Assembly: GCA_964588355.1 (NCBI GenBank)
Contig: CAZPPB010000004.1
Coordinates: 2,992 to 66,991, forward strand
Origin: an uncultured Spirochaetaceae bacterium
GTDB lineage: Bacteria; Spirochaetota; Spirochaetia; SZUA-6; DRHE01
DNA: 64,000 nt
Reading direction: 5' to 3'
The notes below the pieces were generated by a model. The model saw only the letters and a list, made by a program, of their open reading frames with translations, had not been told where the DNA came from and did not search any database. Shown here in pieces: positions 48,331 through 56,415 of the stretch. Numbering within the stretch: the first letter of the stretch is position 1; each line of letters starts with the position of its first letter. The position numbers were made by a program, and so were the translations under genes.

Positions 48331-48861
48331 TCAATCGCTGCCCCGAGCTGCAGCTTTGTACAGATTCCGTATATCCATCATGATCCCCAGGTACTCGTCG
48401 CTCCGGTAATCCGGATAAGTCCATTCCAATGGCCGGAAGCGGCCCTTTTCGTACATCAGTGTAACCTCGGCGAACACACCGTCGGCCAGGGGAATCCGAT
48501 GGGAGCCATCCTTGCTCGATGCTAAAACGAAACGGCTGAGGTTGAGCAGCCCCGGGTCGATGTTCACCTTGCGCTTCCCCGCCTCGGTGAAGCGGTTTTC
48601 CAACACGTTCGTCTGGGTTTTAATTTGACTCAGGGTGCCGGGATCGACGAGCCGGAGGAAGGAAATGAAGAAGCGGGTGATGGGAGTCCCCATTTCTTCG
48701 TCGTAGTAGTGGGTGTAGGAAAAGGGCAGATCAACACTCGTGTAGTCGATCGGGCCGTAGCGCGCTTGGAGAGCTTGGAGAAGGGAATAACGCATCTGTG
48801 TACGGGAAATGAGAATCGGCATCACCAGTTTTTCCGGTTTGAACCTGGTTATCTGCCCCAT
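48331..48861 (-). CDS. Hypothetical protein (possibly DUF4416 family)
   Basis: 176 aa (MGQITRFKPEKLVMPILISR…NIDPGLLNL…HRIPLADGVFAEVTL…). The family call is from memory of the motif pattern only. Confidence 0.45.
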   Translation of the reverse strand: MGQITRFKPEKLVMPILISRTQMRYSLLQALQARYGPIDYTSVDLPFSYTHYYDEEMGTPITRFFISFLRLVDPGTLSQIKTQTNVLENRFTEAGKRKVNIDPGLLNLSRFVLASSKDGSHRIPLADGVFAEVTLMYEKGRFRPLEWTYPDYRSDEYLGIMMDIRNLYKAAARGSD

Positions 48862-48925: not shown

Positions 48926-50302
48926 ATGCCAGAATCCGCAGGCTTTCAAGCGCAACTGGAAGCGGCGGTCGAAGCCAAGCGTCGCTTTCTCGAGGAAAAC
49001 ACCCTTCCCCGGCTTAAAGAGAGCTTTCGATTATTCCAGACCCTTTTCGAAAATCTGTACAACATTCTGCAGCGCAAAGCCCTGATTCAGGAGGATCCCT
49101 ACAAGTACGAGCAGAAAATATCGGAGATCGAGGTCCCCCCCAAGGGAGACATCCTGGATATGGAGAAAAGTGAAAAACTCAGTCAAAGGATGAGTGCCCT
49201 TCATGCCCAACTGGAATTTTTGAATACCTATCAATTCAGTTTGGACTTCATAGATCTGCAGCGGGTGCGGCGGATCATTGAGTTGACGCAGTACATCACC
49301 TGGACGAACCTCAGCGAGACCTCTCCGGATGCGACTACCGCGGTTTTGGCGGAGACACTGGGCAAGATCCGCCCGGGCAGCGACAACGTATCCACCGGGA
49401 TTATCTCTACTTCCCTCACCCAGATGCAGAGGCTGTCTAGAACCATCCTGGCTCAGCTCAAGGAGATCCTCGGATTTCTGCGACAGAGCTACAAGCTGAT
49501 GCTCCGGCAGCAGGTTCTCGATTCCGTGCGGCAGAAATTGGAGACTGTCTATGCGGTCAGCGCGGACAAAGCATACGAGAGACTCAAAGCTAGATTTGCA
49601 GCGACCATGAAGGGAAAGCCCTTTTACCGGGATCTGGCGAATGAGCTACTGAAGGAGGAGTTTTCCAAAGACGCTTCGCAGCTGCAGAACAAAGCCCTCT
49701 CTGCGCTGAGAGTAACCAAAGAAGAGCCTGCAGACATTCAGAAGAAAATGGACTACAGGGTCATTCTCATGGAGGCGGTTCGCCTGATTCTGCCTGCCAG
49801 AGATCGTCTCCAGGATACGCTGCGTAAGATTCTGGCAAACCGGGAGCTGCTGGGAAAGATCAGGCACGGTCTGAGGGGAAGGCTTCGTTCCTGGCTGCAG
49901 AGGAGGTTTCAAAACCGTGAACAGAGTTGGACTGTGGAGATCCGCTTTTTTGATTCCCGGAGTTCCACCACCCAAATCGAGTCGATCGACTTCCAGAAAT
50001 TTGTCGAGAGCGTGCGCAGGAAGATCTCCCTCTTCGATGCGTTGAGTCAGCCGGACAGCACTTCCTTCGCCCGCCTGAGCGAAGCCTCGGAGCAGCAGGT
50101 CGACACGTTTCTCAAGAAGAATATCGGGGAGCTGCAGTTGGTGTACAGACGGCTGCAGGGGCTGAACGTGCTCATTTCCTGCATGCCCTGCCTTCCCAGG
50201 TGGGTAAACGCTAGTGAAAAATCACAGCATTATGAGTATGTCTGGCTCAAAGAACAGGAGGTTCGGTTACAACAGCTGGGAGTCTCCGGACCGCCGAAAT
50301 GA
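48926..50302 (+). CDS. Hypothetical protein, 458 aa, predicted all-alpha/coiled-coil, no recognisable domain
   Basis: A long clean ORF with Leu/Arg/Gln/Glu-rich helical composition. It is convergent with the DAHPS-PDT gene (7-nt gap). Confidence 0.45.
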   Translation: MPESAGFQAQLEAAVEAKRRFLEENTLPRLKESFRLFQTLFENLYNILQRKALIQEDPYKYEQKISEIEVPPKGDILDMEKSEKLSQRMSALHAQLEFLNTYQFSLDFIDLQRVRRIIELTQYITWTNLSETSPDATTAVLAETLGKIRPGSDNVSTGIISTSLTQMQRLSRTILAQLKEILGFLRQSYKLMLRQQVLDSVRQKLETVYAVSADKAYERLKARFAATMKGKPFYRDLANELLKEEFSKDASQLQNKALSALRVTKEEPADIQKKMDYRVILMEAVRLILPARDRLQDTLRKILANRELLGKIRHGLRGRLRSWLQRRFQNREQSWTVEIRFFDSRSSTTQIESIDFQKFVESVRRKISLFDALSQPDSTSFARLSEASEQQVDTFLKKNIGELQLVYRRLQGLNVLISCMPCLPRWVNASEKSQHYEYVWLKEQEVRLQQLGVSGPPK

Positions 50303-50309
50303 AACTCTC

Positions 50310-52214
50310 CTACACGGTGTACAGGCCCAGAGTGCGCAGCGTTTCCGTAACCCCCGACAGTTCCTCCAGGGCGTCCTGGAACGCATTCTCCTCCTCAGGG
50401 ATATCGACATCCACGTAGAACATCTCTTCCCAGGGTTTGCCGGCAATAGGCCTTGATTCCAGCTTCACCATGTTGATGCTGCGCTCGGCCAGCACCTGGA
50501 GCACGCTGAACAGGGATCCCGGCGTATTGGCAGTGGAAAATACCAGGGAAGCCCGATTGGCTTTTCCCCCTCGGCCCTCGGCCAGGGCCAGCTCTTCCCG
50601 GGCGATGATCACGAAGCGGGTATAGTTTTGGCTGTCCGTCTCGATTCCCTCTTTGAGCACCTTCATCTTGTGAACCTTGGCCGCGTCCGAGCTGGCGATG
50701 CCGGCGTTTCCCTTGTTTCCCTGCTCGGCGATAAAGGCGATCGATCCGGCGGTATCGTAGAAGGGGATTTTCTCCCACGCCGGGTAAGCGTCCAGGAAAC
50801 GGGAACATTGGGACAGCCCTTGAGGGTGGGAGTATACCCGCCTGATGTCTTTCAGCTGCGCCTCGGGCAACCCGATGAGATTGTGGATGATCCGGATTGT
50901 TTTTTCACCTACGATGCGGATATCCGGATACTGCAGCAGAAGATCGTAATTCTGATGTATGGAGCCGGTCAGGGTGTTCTCGATCGGGATGATCCCGTAG
51001 TGGCACCTTCCCGTTAGCACCGATTCGAAGACATCCCGGAACTCCTTGAGCGGCAGGGACTGAACCGAGTCGGGGAAATAGCGCAGCAGCGCGTTTTCGC
51101 TGAACGCGCCGGGCTCACCCTGGAAAGCGACCTTGAGCGATCCTTCTTCGCTCGACACGGCCGGAGTGTAGGGGGGCACCCGGGGAAGTTCCTCCGGAAG
51201 CCGGGCAAGCTCCTTGCTCAACACCGGGGTCAGAGCCTGTATGTCCCGCATCAGCTTTTCAAACTGCTCGGGGTACAGTGACTGAGGACCGTCGGAGAGA
51301 GCCTTCTGCGGATCGGTGTGCACCTCCACGATCAGTCCGTCGGCGCCGGCGGCCACTGCAGCCAGGGCCATAGGAATGACCTTGGCCCGTATGCCCGTAC
51401 CGTGGCTCGGGTCCACCAGGATCGGCAGATGACTGAGCTTCTTCACAACCGGGATGGCGGAGATATCCAGGGTGTTGCGGGTATAAGTTTCGAAGGTCCG
51501 AATACCCCGTTCGCAGAGCATCACGTAGTCGGTCCCGTGGGCCAGCAGGTATTCGGCGGACATCAGCAGATCCTGTATCGTGGCGGCCGGCCCTCTCTTC
51601 AGCAGCACCGGTTTGTGCAGGGCTCCGACGGTTTTCAGCAGCTCGAAGTTCTGCATGTTTCGGGCGCCGATTTGCAGGATGTCCGTGTATGCGGCGAACA
51701 TCTCCGTGTGCTCCGGAGTGACGATCTCCGAGATCACGGGCATTCCGTTCGCCTCTCCGGCTTCCTTTAAGTACTTCAGCCCCTCTTCCCCCAGACCCTG
51801 AAAGGCGTAGGGGGAGCTCCTGGGTTTGTAGGCTCCGCCCCGCAGGATAACTGCGCCGGATTCCCGCACCAGGGAAGCGACTTCCAGAATCTGCTGGCGG
51901 GACTCCACCGAACAGGGGCCGGCGATGACGGCGATCCGGGAACCCCCTATCTTCACCGGCCCAACGGGTATAGAGGTGTCCTCTTTTTTGAACTCCCGGG
52001 AAGCCAGTTTGTACGGCTTTGTGATAGGGATGACCCGGGCCACACCGGGGAGGATCTCCACCTGCCTAAGGTCAATGGGAATGATGCCGACAGCCCCCAG
52101 AATCGTTTCTTCCTCGCCCTGGATCTCCCGGATTCGAAAACCCTTGTCTTCGAGGAACGAAACGATGTGCAACTTGTCCGAGGGATTGATGTTGTGTTCG
52201 AGGACGACGATCAT
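50310..52214 (-). CDS. Bifunctional 3-deoxy-7-phosphoheptulonate (DAHP) synthase (type I-beta with N-terminal ferredoxin-like domain, aa 1-~345) / prephenate dehydratase with ACT domain (aa ~355-634)
   Basis: The N-terminal half closely resembles the Thermotoga-type DAHPS (MIVVLEH…AGPCSVES…[19 protein letters not shown]…ILVDPSH…VEVH). The C-terminal half is PDT plus ACT ([17 protein letters not shown]…[10 protein letters not shown]…TRFVII…[19 protein letters not shown]). It is one continuous 634-aa ORF. Confidence 0.8.
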
Positions 52215-52870
52215 GAGGGCAGATTCACCAGGACCTCGGCGATCTCTCCGTTGTCGGTGAGCATCTGTTCGAATGATTCGAGGAGTTTCCTCTCGTTGTC
52301 CAGGATCTTGGCTACGAAATGCAGCGTGCTGTATGGTGTGCCTCGGCGTACCCCGTTGACACCGGCATTGTACATGGCCAGAGCCACCACTTCGTTTTTA
52401 CCGACATCAATACAGTAGCGGAAATGGGCCAGACCGTGCTCGGCGTTGGTCTGGGGATTGTAGAACTGTTCCTCCTTCAGGTTGGGGAACGTCCGGGAGT
52501 TCAACTGAAACAGCCCCCGATCCACCGAGTTGGAGTTGTAATTCAACGCTCGTACCCGATATGAGCTCTCAACCCAGGCGAGTGAGAACGCCAGAGGCAG
52601 GGAGATGTCATTGCTGTCCGCTGCCGCCAGGATTGCATCGGTGATTTCAACGTCGGCGGTTTCCCGGTTGTAGAAGTTCTCCACCAGGGGTCGGGTCAGC
52701 TCGTTTCTGTACAGATACAGGCCCGGATCCACTTCCTCGGGTTTCTCGGAAAGCAGAAACTCGATCGTCTCCGGAGTGAGTATACCGGGGTAGGCCGCTT
52801 CCCCGTTGTTCACACTCCCCGAGCAGGAGAGAAAAATGACAGCAATGAGCGAATACACAACATTTTTCAT
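52211..52870 (-). CDS. Lytic transglycosylase-domain lipoprotein (SLT/GEWL-like)
   Basis: Signal peptide plus lipobox (IFLSCSG). Transglycosylase block AWVESSY…RGLFQLNS…YNAG. It overlaps the upstream gene start by 4 nt. Confidence 0.6.
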   Translation of the reverse strand: MKNVVYSLIAVIFLSCSGSVNNGEAAYPGILTPETIEFLLSEKPEEVDPGLYLYRNELTRPLVENFYNRETADVEITDAILAAADSNDISLPLAFSLAWVESSYRVRALNYNSNSVDRGLFQLNSRTFPNLKEEQFYNPQTNAEHGLAHFRYCIDVGKNEVVALAMYNAGVNGVRRGTPYSTLHFVAKILDNERKLLESFEQMLTDNGEIAEVLVNLPS

Positions 52871-54193: not shown

Positions 54194-55231
54194 TCATTCC
54201 GCAGAAATTAGAGCAATCCCCTGCTGTTCAGCCAAAGCGTTTAGTGTTTCAAGTAGCTCTTCCTCTATCGGAATTCCCGTGTGTTCGGATTCCTGCAGGT
54301 TGTGCACGACCCGATGGCCGGGTAGGCGGATATTGTTGAATCCAGGACGCACGCGGCTGTTTAGCATATGTGCTTTGAATCGCTCAATCTCTTTGTAGTA
54401 GTACTCGTCTCCAGCGAACGCCTTGGGGTCAATTACGGTCAGTCCTGCGGATTGACTCGTTTTTGTTTCCGGATTGTTACACTCCCCCCCGGCCAGAGCG
54501 GCGATACCCTCAGCCCAAAGGGACATCCCATACCCCTTGTAGCCGAAATGGGCACCACCTATGAACAGCACAGATCCTCCCTCAAAAGCGACCTTTGGGT
54601 CCGTGCTGAGATTCCCTTTAGCATCGAGAAAGATCGGTTCGGGCGCTTGCTGACCGTTTTGGACCATCCGTTTGGTCTTGCCCATGGAAATCGTGGTCGT
54701 GGAGAAGTCGGATATAACCGGATCTCCCTTGGTGGGAAAAGCCATGGCAATGGGATTGGTGGAGAACTTAGCATCTATCCCGCCATACGGCGCTGCGTCC
54801 CGACATGTCGTGGTTTGAGCCCAGAGCTGGGCCATATAGCCCTGCTGTGTAAGGGAGTGAAGATACGGTCCCAGCGCTCCAAACCAGCAGCACTTTCTGA
54901 CCGTAACCATGGCCACACCTTGTTTTGAGGCTTTTTCCACGGCGACTTTCTTTGCCACGCTCAGTGCCAACTGAGCGAAGCCATAGTTGCCGTCAATGAC
55001 CGCAGTGGCTCCGGATTCTTTGATCACCTCCGGTTCGGCAGACGGGTCTATTGGCTCCGGGATGTTTTGATTGAAATAAGGAAACACCGCCATACCGTGA
55101 GTGTGGATACCCATGGCCTGAGTTTTTACGGCAATCTCGGCGATGGTTTGGGCGTTCTGTTCTGAAACCCCCTTGTTTTTCAAGAACTCAACACCAAATT
55201 TAATCAGGGTTTCTTTCGAACAGCGTTTCAT
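54194..55231 (-). CDS. Ldh_2 family (malate/L-lactate/L-sulfolactate dehydrogenase type 2) oxidoreductase
   Basis: MKRCSKETLIKFGVEFLKNKGVSEQNAQTIAEIAVKTQAMGIHTHGMAV… is a typical Ldh_2 N-terminus. ATG at 55231 with GGGAGGAAG upstream. The ORF-track extension to 55612 is Gly/Arg-rich junk. Confidence 0.7.
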   Translation of the reverse strand: MKRCSKETLIKFGVEFLKNKGVSEQNAQTIAEIAVKTQAMGIHTHGMAVFPYFNQNIPEPIDPSAEPEVIKESGATAVIDGNYGFAQLALSVAKKVAVEKASKQGVAMVTVRKCCWFGALGPYLHSLTQQGYMAQLWAQTTTCRDAAPYGGIDAKFSTNPIAMAFPTKGDPVISDFSTTTISMGKTKRMVQNGQQAPEPIFLDAKGNLSTDPKVAFEGGSVLFIGGAHFGYKGYGMSLWAEGIAALAGGECNNPETKTSQSAGLTVIDPKAFAGDEYYYKEIERFKAHMLNSRVRPGFNNIRLPGHRVVHNLQESEHTGIPIEEELLETLNALAEQQGIALISAE

Positions 55232-56415
55232 ACTTCCTCCCTTGCTCGATTCACGATACTCCGCCAGTCGTTCCAGTCGTCGACCGACAGATCGTCGGTA
55301 ATGCCGCTGATCGACAGGATGTATCCTCTCTCGGCCACCTCCGATAGACTGCAGGCCCGACGGATTACAAACTGTACCTCCTCCATCGTATGGCGATACA
55401 AATCCCCCACGCATCCTCCGCAGAAAACGAAATGTTTCCCAAACCGCCGCACCAGTTCCGGCAGGTTCGGGTTTTCCTCCCAATCGAAGGGATTGATGAT
55501 GTCGATCCCGATAGCCGCCAGATCCGGAAGCAGCGGGGCGATGTTTCCATGGGAATGGAGATGGATGAATGCCCCCCGGCCGTGAACCCTCCGTGTAAGT
55601 TCGTCGTACCACGGAAGGAAGAACTCGCGGAAGAGCTCCGGCGACATCAGCAATCCGTCTGCGTTTCCCAGATCATCACAGACATTGATGATCTCCACCC
55701 CGCTGTCCAGGAGCATCTCAACGGCATCGAGATTCATGGCGGCCAGAGTACTTGTTAACCGTTTGATGAAATCCGGTTTCAGCAGCATATTAACCATGGT
55801 GTCCTGGAAATCCATGAATGAATTGTGGACTCCGGAGAAGAAACCCTGGATCACGCCGGTGGTCGCGAAACCAGCGGCCTTGAAATATCGACAGTCCGCT
55901 TCGATATCCTGGAACCGTTCGGCGTTCTTCATATTGGGGAGCTCGAGGGTTTCCAGGTCCGCTTCGGTCTGTACCGGAAAGTGGTAGTACATGATCGAGT
56001 GGGGATTGTAGCCGTGTTTTCGCCGGCACCCCCCCTCGTATTCGAGGATTTTATATTCCGATGTGCGTTCGATCACCACCGGCTGAATCTCCCCCGGTCC
56101 GCCGTGCCCAAAGGGGAAAACCGCACCCTTTCCGGTCCCCAGTGTCGCCATGTCCATGTACCGGGCCATTCGCACGGCTTGGTCGCGGCTGTCCGAAGTG
56201 CGGGGGTCGGGAGAGAATCGGTCCCTTGGGGGTTCATCTGAAGGAATACAGTACGTGTTTTCATCATAGCAGTCGGCCGGAACGAGCTTGTGCATCGTTT
56301 TTACATCCCAAAATCCGATGGGATCGATGATCTTTCCGTCTTCGACGACCACGGATCCCGTTTCGATCATCCGGAACGGTGTGATCACTTTCCCGTCAAT
56401 GATTGCCGTCTTCAT
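55228..56415 (-). CDS. Uroporphyrinogen-decarboxylase (URO-D) family protein (MtaA/CmuA-like methyltransferase/decarboxylase fold)
   Basis: 395 aa with URO-D-like C-terminal blocks (…FIHLHSHGN…GIDIINPFD…). It overlaps the downstream Ldh_2 gene by 4 nt. The family call is by eye. Confidence 0.55.
   Translation of the reverse strand: MKTAIIDGKVITPFRMIETGSVVVEDGKIIDPIGFWDVKTMHKLVPADCYDENTYCIPSDEPPRDRFSPDPRTSDSRDQAVRMARYMDMATLGTGKGAVFPFGHGGPGEIQPVVIERTSEYKILEYEGGCRRKHGYNPHSIMYYHFPVQTEADLETLELPNMKNAERFQDIEADCRYFKAAGFATTGVIQGFFSGVHNSFMDFQDTMVNMLLKPDFIKRLTSTLAAMNLDAVEMLLDSGVEIINVCDDLGNADGLLMSPELFREFFLPWYDELTRRVHGRGAFIHLHSHGNIAPLLPDLAAIGIDIINPFDWEENPNLPELVRRFGKHFVFCGGCVGDLYRHTMEEVQFVIRRACSLSEVAERGYILSISGITDDLSVDDWNDWRSIVNRAREEV

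What the first reader, a model, noticed from the sequence alone, without database searches (positions are those of the whole stretch)
50310..52214. DAHP synthase fused to prephenate dehydratase + ACT domain (the chorismate-mutase step is skipped)
Known aromatic-pathway fusions are CM-DAHPS, CM-PDT (the P-protein) and CM-PDH. Here a Thermotoga-like type I-beta DAHPS with its N-terminal ferredoxin-like regulatory domain is fused to PDT+ACT. The ACT domain is the Phe sensor of PDT. Attaching it to the first committed enzyme would put both the entry step and the Phe-branch step under one allosteric module. That would be a neat, apparently unusual wiring.
Basis: partly seen in the sequence, partly recalled or inferred. 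Interest (0 to 1): 0.55.

Follow-up and report, generated by a model that had tools for sequence, protein, structure and literature searches.

The report
DAHP synthase–prephenate dehydratase fusion enzyme
One intact gene joins the first enzyme of aromatic amino-acid synthesis to the phenylalanine-branch enzyme; the design is widespread in spirochaetes and sulfate reducers but I found no study of it, so it is a real, moderately interesting variant rather than a rarity.

Summary
Window 50310-52214 (-) is one uninterrupted 634-aa frame. It encodes a ferredoxin-like regulatory domain, a type I-beta DAHP synthase barrel, a ~16-residue disordered linker, prephenate dehydratase (PDT) and an ACT domain. 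All catalytic and ligand motifs of both halves are intact.

It is not an artefact. The same collinear protein is in about 35 of 41 genomes of the order, and the rest hold contig-cut pieces. It also occurs in some Treponema and Sphaerochaeta and in many Desulfobacterota.

In all 41 genomes the fusion is the only PDT. In 39 of 41 a second, free-standing DAHP synthase exists; here it is type I-alpha. Chorismate mutase is always a separate gene; here it is AroH-type.

The best reading is a bifunctional enzyme that serves as a Phe-branch DAHP synthase isozyme with two sensor domains, not one.

Direct allosteric cross-talk between the halves is unproven. The linker varies in length and sequence. A Spirochaeta africana lineage keeps a catalytically dead DAHPS half on a live PDT, which hints at a non-catalytic role.

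Other fusions of the two enzymes exist, including the reverse order (with or without CM) and Clostridial forms. No paper on this architecture was found. First readers of this scan noted the same fusion in other genomes.

The parts
52017..52214 (-). Ferredoxin-like (ACT-like) regulatory domain of type I-beta DAHP synthase, residues 1-66
   Evidence: PF18152 at 45 bits, over its cut-off of 27. It aligns to T. maritima DAHPS residues 1-66. Positions R29/E30/I31, G33, E35-T37, G40-G43, D48 and R50 are conserved among spirochaete fusions.
51210..52013 (-). Type I-beta DAHP synthase (beta/alpha)8 barrel, residues 68-335
   Evidence: PF00793 at 267 bits and TIGR01361 at 386 bits. It is 50-53% identical to 1rzm/4grs. 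C101, KPR130-132, [23 protein letters not shown]271, E297-V-H299 and S307-D308 are invariant or nearly so in 58 fusions. The model matches 3pg8 with TM 0.97.
51144..51191 (-). Disordered inter-enzyme linker, residues 342-357
   Evidence: AF2 pLDDT is below 50. Column conservation is 0.20. The length between the anchors P331 and G366 is 27-68 residues, median 34, and the sequence is unrelated among lineages.
50592..51131 (-). Prephenate dehydratase catalytic domain, residues 362-541
   Evidence: PF00800 at 200 bits. It is about 39% identical to C. tepidum PDT 2qmx, E 6e-54. The T532-R-F motif is invariant. It is the only PDT in the genome.
50313..50549 (-). C-terminal ACT domain of PDT, residues 556-634 (stop codon at 50310-50312)
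   Evidence: PF01842 at 33 bits. E586-S-R-P589 and G566-x-L568 are invariant in the fusions. It aligns to the ACT domain of L-Phe-bound 2qmx.
52211..52870 (-). Upstream lytic-transglycosylase (SLT) gene; its stop codon overlaps the fusion's ATG (ATGA), so it is probably co-transcribed. Context, not part of the enzyme.
   Evidence: PF01464 at 49 bits. The overlap is seen in the sequence. The same SLT-fusion order occurs in L018 (Marispirochaeta) and L025.

Best explanation
This is a genuine bifunctional enzyme. The N-terminal half is a Thermotoga-type DAHP synthase with its own ferredoxin-like sensor domain; it condenses PEP and erythrose-4-phosphate, the pathway's entry step. The C-terminal half converts prephenate to phenylpyruvate, the committed Phe step, and carries the usual Phe-binding ACT domain. 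The two halves are joined by a flexible tether. Chorismate mutase and the six trunk enzymes are encoded elsewhere. The fusion is the cell's only PDT, while a second free-standing DAHP synthase exists. The fusion therefore most likely acts as a Phe-branch DAHP synthase isozyme. It is made in fixed 1:1 ratio with PDT and probably co-assembles with it (a DAHPS tetramer core with PDT-ACT dimers). An aromatic amino acid would shut it down at two sensors, the FL domain for the barrel and the ACT domain for PDT. Shown here: the architecture, intact motifs, conservation and gene inventory. Inferred: both activities, the effectors and the oligomer. Open: whether the halves talk to each other.
For: The frame is intact and has four domains. 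The DAHPS metal ligands and PEP motif, and the PDT TRF and ACT ESRP motifs, are conserved against solved structures and invariant in 58 fusions from two phyla. The N-half is more conserved than the C-half between phyla, 58% against 49%. The AF2 model has pLDDT 87 and pTM 0.71; the halves match 1rzm (TM 0.83) and 2qmx (TM 0.87). A full-length fusion is in about 35 of 41 genomes across 8 families of the order; the rest are contig-cut. There is exactly one PDT per genome, always the fusion. A second DAHPS is present in 39 of 41: type I-alpha in 28, otherwise a free FL-DAHPS I-beta. A separate CM is present in 38 of 41. TyrA is present. Chorismate synthase is present in 9 of 9 congeners.
Against: No activity or effector was measured. 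The effector of the FL domain is unknown. From my memory of the T. maritima work, the two residues that contact the Tyr hydroxyl (H29, S31) are R and I here; I have not checked this. The gene's neighbours are not aromatic-pathway genes: SLT, GGDEF and DUF4416. The isozyme reading rests on gene counts in MAGs that are 68-99% complete. The own assembly lacks chorismate synthase, which I read as an assembly gap.
Confidence: 0.6

Rival explanations
1. Shared-sensor wiring. The PDT-ACT half is itself the allosteric module of the DAHPS barrel. Phe bound at ACT, or prephenate bound in the PDT site, changes how the halves pack and gates DAHPS. This would resemble the way the fused CM domain gates DAH7PS in Geobacillus and Prevotella.
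For: In type I-beta DAH7PS, fused CM domains at either end do exactly this, and in Prevotella the two activities depend on each other (PMC8408635). The Spirochaeta africana lineage and five other cluster representatives keep a full-length DAHPS half that has lost its catalytic residues, on a live PDT. There the N-half is 46-64% identical among members and the C-half 73-79%. This suggests the barrel has a non-catalytic role for PDT. DAHPS and PDT were fused independently at least three times.
Against: The linker varies in length (27-68 residues) and has no conserved sequence; its core is predicted to be disordered. The FL domain, the proven gate in T. maritima, is retained and conserved, so a second gate is not needed. 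No direct evidence of contact between the halves was obtained.
Confidence: 0.25
2. The DAHPS half of this protein is a pseudo-enzyme, or serves only as a scaffold or sensor for PDT. The free type I-alpha DAHPS carries all the flux.
For: Such decayed forms exist in other lineages. Song et al. 2005 called the Shewanella I-beta domain a pseudogene (PMC1173090). A second DAHPS is almost always present.
Against: In this protein and in 58 relatives every metal ligand and PEP-binding residue is invariant. The barrel is the best-conserved part of the protein.
Confidence: 0.07
3. The enzyme feeds a specialised phenylpyruvate-derived product rather than housekeeping Phe synthesis.
For: The neighbours are not aromatic-pathway genes. 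A Ldh_2-family dehydrogenase lies nearby both here and in a Desulfarculaceae locus.
Against: It is the sole PDT in all 41 genomes searched. No biosynthetic cluster surrounds it. The synteny is with cell-wall and unknown-function genes.
Confidence: 0.05
4. It is an artefact: two adjacent genes were merged by a sequencing or assembly error.
For: A Clostridiales MAG has DAHPS and PDT as in-frame neighbours 12 nt apart (L085), so a single base error could mimic a fusion.
Against: The same uninterrupted frame is in more than 120 independent clusters, in closed chromosomes and in two phyla.
Confidence: 0.01

Closest known systems
Thermotoga maritima DAH7PS (FL/ACT-like domain + type I-beta barrel; PDB 1rzm, 3pg9)
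   Same: The N-terminal 335 residues are collinear with it and 50% identical. They share the FL domain, the metal ligands and the KPR motif, and the model matches at TM 0.83.
   Different: The T. maritima enzyme ends after the barrel. Here a linker and a complete PDT-ACT follow. From memory and unchecked, the FL residues that contact the Tyr hydroxyl (H29, S31) are R and I here.
Monofunctional prephenate dehydratase with ACT domain (Chlorobium tepidum PDT, PDB 2qmx, L-Phe bound)
   Same: Residues 362-633 align end to end with it (E 6e-54) and carry the TRF and ESRP motifs. The model matches at TM 0.87.
   Different: That protein stands alone. Here PDT-ACT is the C-terminal half of a DAHP synthase.
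DAH7PS-CM fusions: C-terminal CM (Prevotella nigrescens, Porphyromonas gingivalis) and N-terminal CM (Bacillus, Listeria, Geobacillus; PDB 5j6f, 3nvt)
   Same: A type I-beta barrel is fused to a downstream aromatic-pathway enzyme that does not use its product. [quoted passage not shown]
   Different: The partner here is PDT-ACT, one step further down the Phe branch, not CM. The FL domain is kept as well. Reciprocal allostery is shown for the CM fusions and is untested here.
P-protein (CM-PDT-ACT, E. coli PheA) and the reverse-order (CM-)PDT-ACT-DAHPS proteins (Shewanella aroQ-pheA-aroA I-beta in PMC1173090; Acidobacteriota and Calditrichaceae forms P0134, P0132)
   Same: PDT-ACT is fused to another aromatic-pathway enzyme. 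The reverse-order forms join the same two enzymes.
   Different: This protein has no CM domain and the opposite domain order, and its DAHPS carries an FL domain. The DAHPS domains of the reverse-order forms fall in other parts of the tree, so they arose by independent fusions.

Membership tests
Type I-beta DAHP synthase (PF00793; TIGR01361; NF006421) | A (beta/alpha)8 barrel that matches the family models over their cut-offs | tested here: met
   PF00793 scores 267 bits (cut-off 25.5). TIGR01361 scores 386 bits (cut-off 268). NF006421 scores 473 bits (cut-off 335). Foldseek matches 3pg8 at TM 0.97.
Type I-beta DAHP synthase (PF00793; TIGR01361; NF006421) | Metal ligands Cys-His-Glu-Asp and the KPR(S/T) PEP-binding motif | tested here: met
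   C101, H271, E297, D308 and K130-P-R-S align to the equivalent residues of 1rzm. They are invariant or present in at least 90% of related fusions.
Type I-beta DAHP synthase (PF00793; TIGR01361; NF006421) | N-terminal ferredoxin-like regulatory domain (Thermotoga subclass) | tested here: met
   PF18152 scores 45 bits (cut-off 27) over residues 1-66.
Type I-beta DAHP synthase (PF00793; TIGR01361; NF006421) | DAHP synthase activity and feedback inhibition | not testable with these tools
   This needs an enzyme assay.
Prephenate dehydratase with ACT domain (PF00800 + PF01842) | PDT catalytic domain with the catalytic Thr in the TRF motif | tested here: met
   PF00800 scores 200 bits (cut-off 25.2). 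T532-R-F is invariant. The domain aligns to 2qmx.
Prephenate dehydratase with ACT domain (PF00800 + PF01842) | C-terminal ACT domain with the ESRP and GxL ligand motifs | tested here: met
   PF01842 scores 33 bits (cut-off 27). E586-S-R-P and G566-x-L568 are invariant.
Prephenate dehydratase with ACT domain (PF00800 + PF01842) | NCBIfam equivalog score for the whole protein | tested here: inconclusive
   PRK11898 scores 215 bits against a cut-off of 219. PRK11899 scores 224 bits against 359. The first is just under its cut-off. Those models were built on free-standing PDTs.
P-protein (CM-PDT-ACT) | N-terminal AroQ chorismate mutase domain | tested here: not met
   There is no CM_2 or CM_1 match in the protein, and no CM_2 anywhere in the genome. 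PRK10622 matches only its PDT part, 205 bits against a cut-off of 577.
Bifunctional DAH7PS/CM (AroA(Q), PniDAH7PS type) | AroQ CM domain fused to the barrel | tested here: not met
   PRK12595 matches only its barrel part, profile positions 95-356. There is no CM domain.
Reverse-order (CM-)PDT-ACT-DAHPS proteins (Shewanella type) | PDT-ACT lies N-terminal to a DAHPS barrel that lacks an FL domain | tested here: not met
   The order here is FL-DAHPS-PDT-ACT. The barrels of the reverse-order forms group elsewhere in the tree.

The most novel reading that the evidence does not exclude
The PDT-ACT half works as a second, end-product- or prephenate-sensing gate on the DAHPS barrel. The entry step of the pathway would then be controlled by two covalently attached sensors, FL and PDT-ACT, with combined logic. 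PDT activity would in turn depend on the barrel. That dependence would explain why some lineages keep a catalytically dead barrel on a live PDT. This would be a new kind of reciprocal allostery between the first enzyme and a branch enzyme of a pathway.
Probability: 0.25. Interest if true: 0.6.

Novelty: new variant of a known kind. Interest (0 to 1): 0.4.

Why it matters
Type I-beta DAHP synthases are a textbook case of allostery gained by bolting on domains, either the FL/ACT-like domain or CM at either end. This family adds a third partner, PDT-ACT, while keeping the FL domain. It gives a natural protein with two sensor domains and two active sites that lie eight reactions apart in the pathway. 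It is common: it occurs throughout one spirochaete order, in termite-gut, rumen and human-gut Treponema, and in many sulfate reducers. Public annotation nevertheless names only one of its two halves: '3-deoxy-7-phosphoheptulonate synthase' here, and 'prephenate dehydratase' for the decayed form in Spirochaeta africana. Automatic metabolic reconstructions may therefore miss one of the two steps. The live-barrel and dead-barrel lineages together form a ready-made natural experiment on whether the halves depend on each other.

Tried and rejected
- **Complex prediction** of residues 1-340 against 358-634 gave no verdict (score 0.00). It counts neither for nor against contact.
I read neighbour genes of distant fusions from ORF lists plus Pfam instead.
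- **Literature:** four full-text searches found no paper on a natural DAHPS-PDT fusion. The Light & Anderson 2013 review (PMC3610045) is not held. Searches for the T. maritima FL-domain residues led nowhere, so that point rests on memory.
- **Internal start codon** that would give a free PDT: the window has GGAGG-N10-GTG at V346, but relatives do not share it, not even the 88%-identical one. I rejected it as a conserved feature.
- **Riboswitch, attenuator or T-box:** Rfam found nothing in the whole window.
- **'No chorismate mutase in the lineage':** I considered this when CM_2 and CM_1 were both missing in four families. I rejected it after finding a yeast/plant-type CM in all ten of those genomes.
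- **'No chorismate synthase':** it is absent from this assembly but present in 9 of 9 congeners, so this is an assembly gap.
- **PDT-half tree**: it is too poorly resolved to prove that the two halves share one history. Collinear and reverse-order forms are mostly separate.

Full report
**What is there.** The ORF at 50310..52214 on the minus strand is one uninterrupted 634-aa frame.
- Pfam places four domains in order: DAHP_snth_FXD at 1-66, DAHP_synth_1 at 87-324, PDT at 362-541 and ACT at 556-619. All four are over their gathering scores.
- NCBIfam gives a full-length match to the FL-type I-beta DAHP synthase model NF006421 over residues 1-335 (473 bits). It also gives PDT models over 360-633. 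No model covers both halves.
- No chorismate mutase (CM) domain is present.
- The ATG overlaps the stop codon of an upstream SLT-domain gene (ATGA). The other neighbours are a GGDEF protein, a Ldh_2 dehydrogenase, a DUF4416 protein and a HAD hydrolase. None is an aromatic-pathway gene.
- Rfam finds no RNA element in the window.

**Are both halves intact?**
- Against T. maritima DAHPS (1rzm, 4grs) the N-half is 50-53% identical over residues 1-332. It keeps the metal ligands (C101, H271, E297, D308) and the KPRS phosphate/PEP motif.
- Against L-Phe-bound Chlorobium PDT (2qmx) the C-half aligns end to end. It keeps the TRF motif and the ACT ESRP and GxL motifs.
- In an alignment of 58 full-length fusions from Spirochaetota, Desulfobacterota and unplaced MAGs these residues are invariant or nearly so. 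The barrel is the best-conserved region.
- An AlphaFold2 model built on 44 sequences has mean pLDDT 87.4 and pTM 0.71. Only residues 342-357 in the linker have a long stretch below 50.
- Foldseek matches the halves to 1rzm (TM 0.83) and 2qmx (TM 0.87). No solved structure spans both.

**Is the fusion real and how widespread is it?**
- More than 120 clusters at 72-96% identity have the same length and domains.
- All 41 genomes sampled from the order (8 families, 22 genera) match. About 35 carry the full 1-632/634 span in one frame at 62-91% identity. The rest are cut by contig ends.
- In an even sample of 200 further genomes of the phylum, the full fusion is in only 8, all of the same class. 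The other classes carry the free FL-DAHPS alone.
- Named records place it in Spirochaetaceae, including closed chromosome CP070696.1 at 88% identity. It is also in Marispirochaeta associata, Sphaerochaetaceae and several Treponema, including T. berlinense.
- At 48-54% identity it is in Desulfobacula, Desulfotignum, Desulfobacter, Desulfarculaceae and Syntrophobacteraceae, and in one Atribacterota MAG.

**Other ways the two enzymes are joined.** A search of 1.84 billion cluster representatives shows further architectures:
- PDT-ACT-DAHPS in Calditrichaceae.
- CM_2-PDT-ACT-DAHPS in Acidobacteriota and others. This is the arrangement Song et al. 2005 noted in Shewanella (PMC1173090).
- A Clostridial FL-DAHPS-PDT without ACT (L082).
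- In a Clostridiales MAG, the two genes as in-frame neighbours 12 nt apart (L085).

In a quick ML tree of the barrel, the collinear Spirochaetota, Desulfobacterota and Atribacterota fusions form one group (63 rows, SH-aLRT 93). Desulfobacterota form a clade within it (99). The Clostridial and reverse-order forms fall elsewhere. This implies at least three independent fusions. The PDT-half tree is compatible with this but poorly resolved.

**Genomic bookkeeping.** The own assembly is 3.94 Mb in 255 contigs, 94.8% complete.
- It has exactly one PDT, the fusion.
- It has a second DAHP synthase of type I-alpha on contig C55 (TIGR00034, 462 bits).
- It has no AroQ CM. It does have an AroH CM on C137 (TIGR01796, 97 bits against a cut-off of 82).
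- It has a TyrA.
- Chorismate synthase is missing from this assembly. It is present in all nine congeners, so I read this as an assembly gap.

Across the 41 genomes of the order:
- Each has one PDT, always the fusion.
- 28 have the type I-alpha DAHPS. Those that lack it have a free FL-DAHPS I-beta about 50% identical to the fusion. So 39 of 41 have a second DAHPS. The two exceptions are 70-73% complete.
- 28 have AroH CM. The ten genomes of four families that lack it all have a ~245-aa yeast/plant-type CM (TIGR01802).

The CM step is therefore always encoded separately. The fusion is never the only DAHPS but is always the only PDT.

**How it most likely works.**
- *Shown here:* the architecture, the motif integrity, the conservation and the inventory above.
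- *From established knowledge:* in T. maritima the FL domains pair on Tyr binding and cap the barrel. PDT ACT domains bind Phe at their dimer interface and inhibit PDT. The first point is from my own knowledge of the Parker and Kretsinger work. The second is supported by 2qmx and 6vh5 being Phe complexes.
- *Inferred:* the protein is a bifunctional enzyme and a Phe-branch DAHPS isozyme. It is made 1:1 with PDT and has two sensors.

**Whether the halves communicate is open.**
- *Against tight coupling:* the spacing between the conserved anchors P331 and G366 ranges from 27 to 68 residues. The sequence there is unrelated among lineages, and the core is predicted to be disordered.
- *For some dependence:* in the Spirochaeta africana lineage (P0175, P0308-P0311) and in five other cluster representatives the barrel has lost C101, KPR, H271, H299 and D308. 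It is nevertheless kept at full length on a PDT-ACT with intact motifs. The N-halves are 46-64% identical among members and the C-halves 73-79%. A dead domain that is retained suggests a structural or regulatory role.
- *By analogy:* CM domains fused to either end of I-beta barrels act as prephenate-sensing gates. In Prevotella the two activities are interdependent (PMC8408635).

**Novelty.**
- Full-text searches found no paper that describes or characterises a natural DAHPS-PDT fusion.
- A 2021 specialist paper lists only CM as an enzyme fused to I-beta DAH7PS.
- The sequences themselves are abundant in public databases but are annotated with only one of their two functions.
- First readers of this scan flagged the same architecture in several other genomes.
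- I class it as a new variant of a known kind, the modular type I-beta DAHP synthases. It is of moderate interest.

Noticed in passing
relatives G022-G025, G029-G032, G036, G037; loci L093:1447-2184(-), L094:1099-1836(+): Four families of the same order lack AroH CM. All ten of their genomes carry a ~245-aa yeast/plant-type chorismate mutase (TIGR01802, 120-195 bits). That model rings in none of the 14 control prokaryote genomes. The same genomes hold a longer, divergent chorismate synthase (~305-316 bits).
   Followed up: partly
proteins P0175, P0308 (Spirochaeta africana), P0309-P0311; also P0131, P0182, P0156, P0197, P0240: These are collinear fusions in which the DAHPS half has lost all metal and PEP ligands yet is kept at full length on a PDT-ACT with intact motifs. 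This looks like a pseudo-enzyme domain. NCBI names them only 'prephenate dehydratase'.
   Followed up: partly
L085:2206-4062 and L082:3884-5560: A Clostridiales MAG has FL-DAHPS and PDT as separate in-frame genes 12 nt apart, the unfused state. Clostridiaceae MAGs have FL-DAHPS-PDT without an ACT domain, which is an independent fusion.
   Followed up: partly
window 52211-52870 (-), 48331-48861 (-); L018, L025: The gene order SLT lytic transglycosylase, then fusion, then DUF4416 is shared with Marispirochaeta and another Spirochaetia MAG. The SLT stop codon overlaps the fusion's start codon (ATGA). I have no functional link to offer.
   Followed up: partly
window 54194-55612 (-); L062:6364-7416 (-): A Ldh_2-family (malate/L-lactate dehydrogenase-like) gene lies near the fusion both here and in a Desulfarculaceae chromosome. 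This may be chance.
   Followed up: no
window 51179-51199 (-): The linker coding sequence holds GGAGG, 10 nt, then an in-frame GTG (V346). That could give a free PDT-ACT. Relatives do not share it, so it is probably chance.
   Followed up: yes
window 48926-50302 (+): A 458-aa ORF between the fusion and DUF4416, on the opposite strand, has no Pfam match.
   Followed up: no
own genome G000: Chorismate synthase (PF01264) is not found in this 94.8%-complete assembly. It is present in all nine congeners, so this is most likely an assembly gap.
   Followed up: yes
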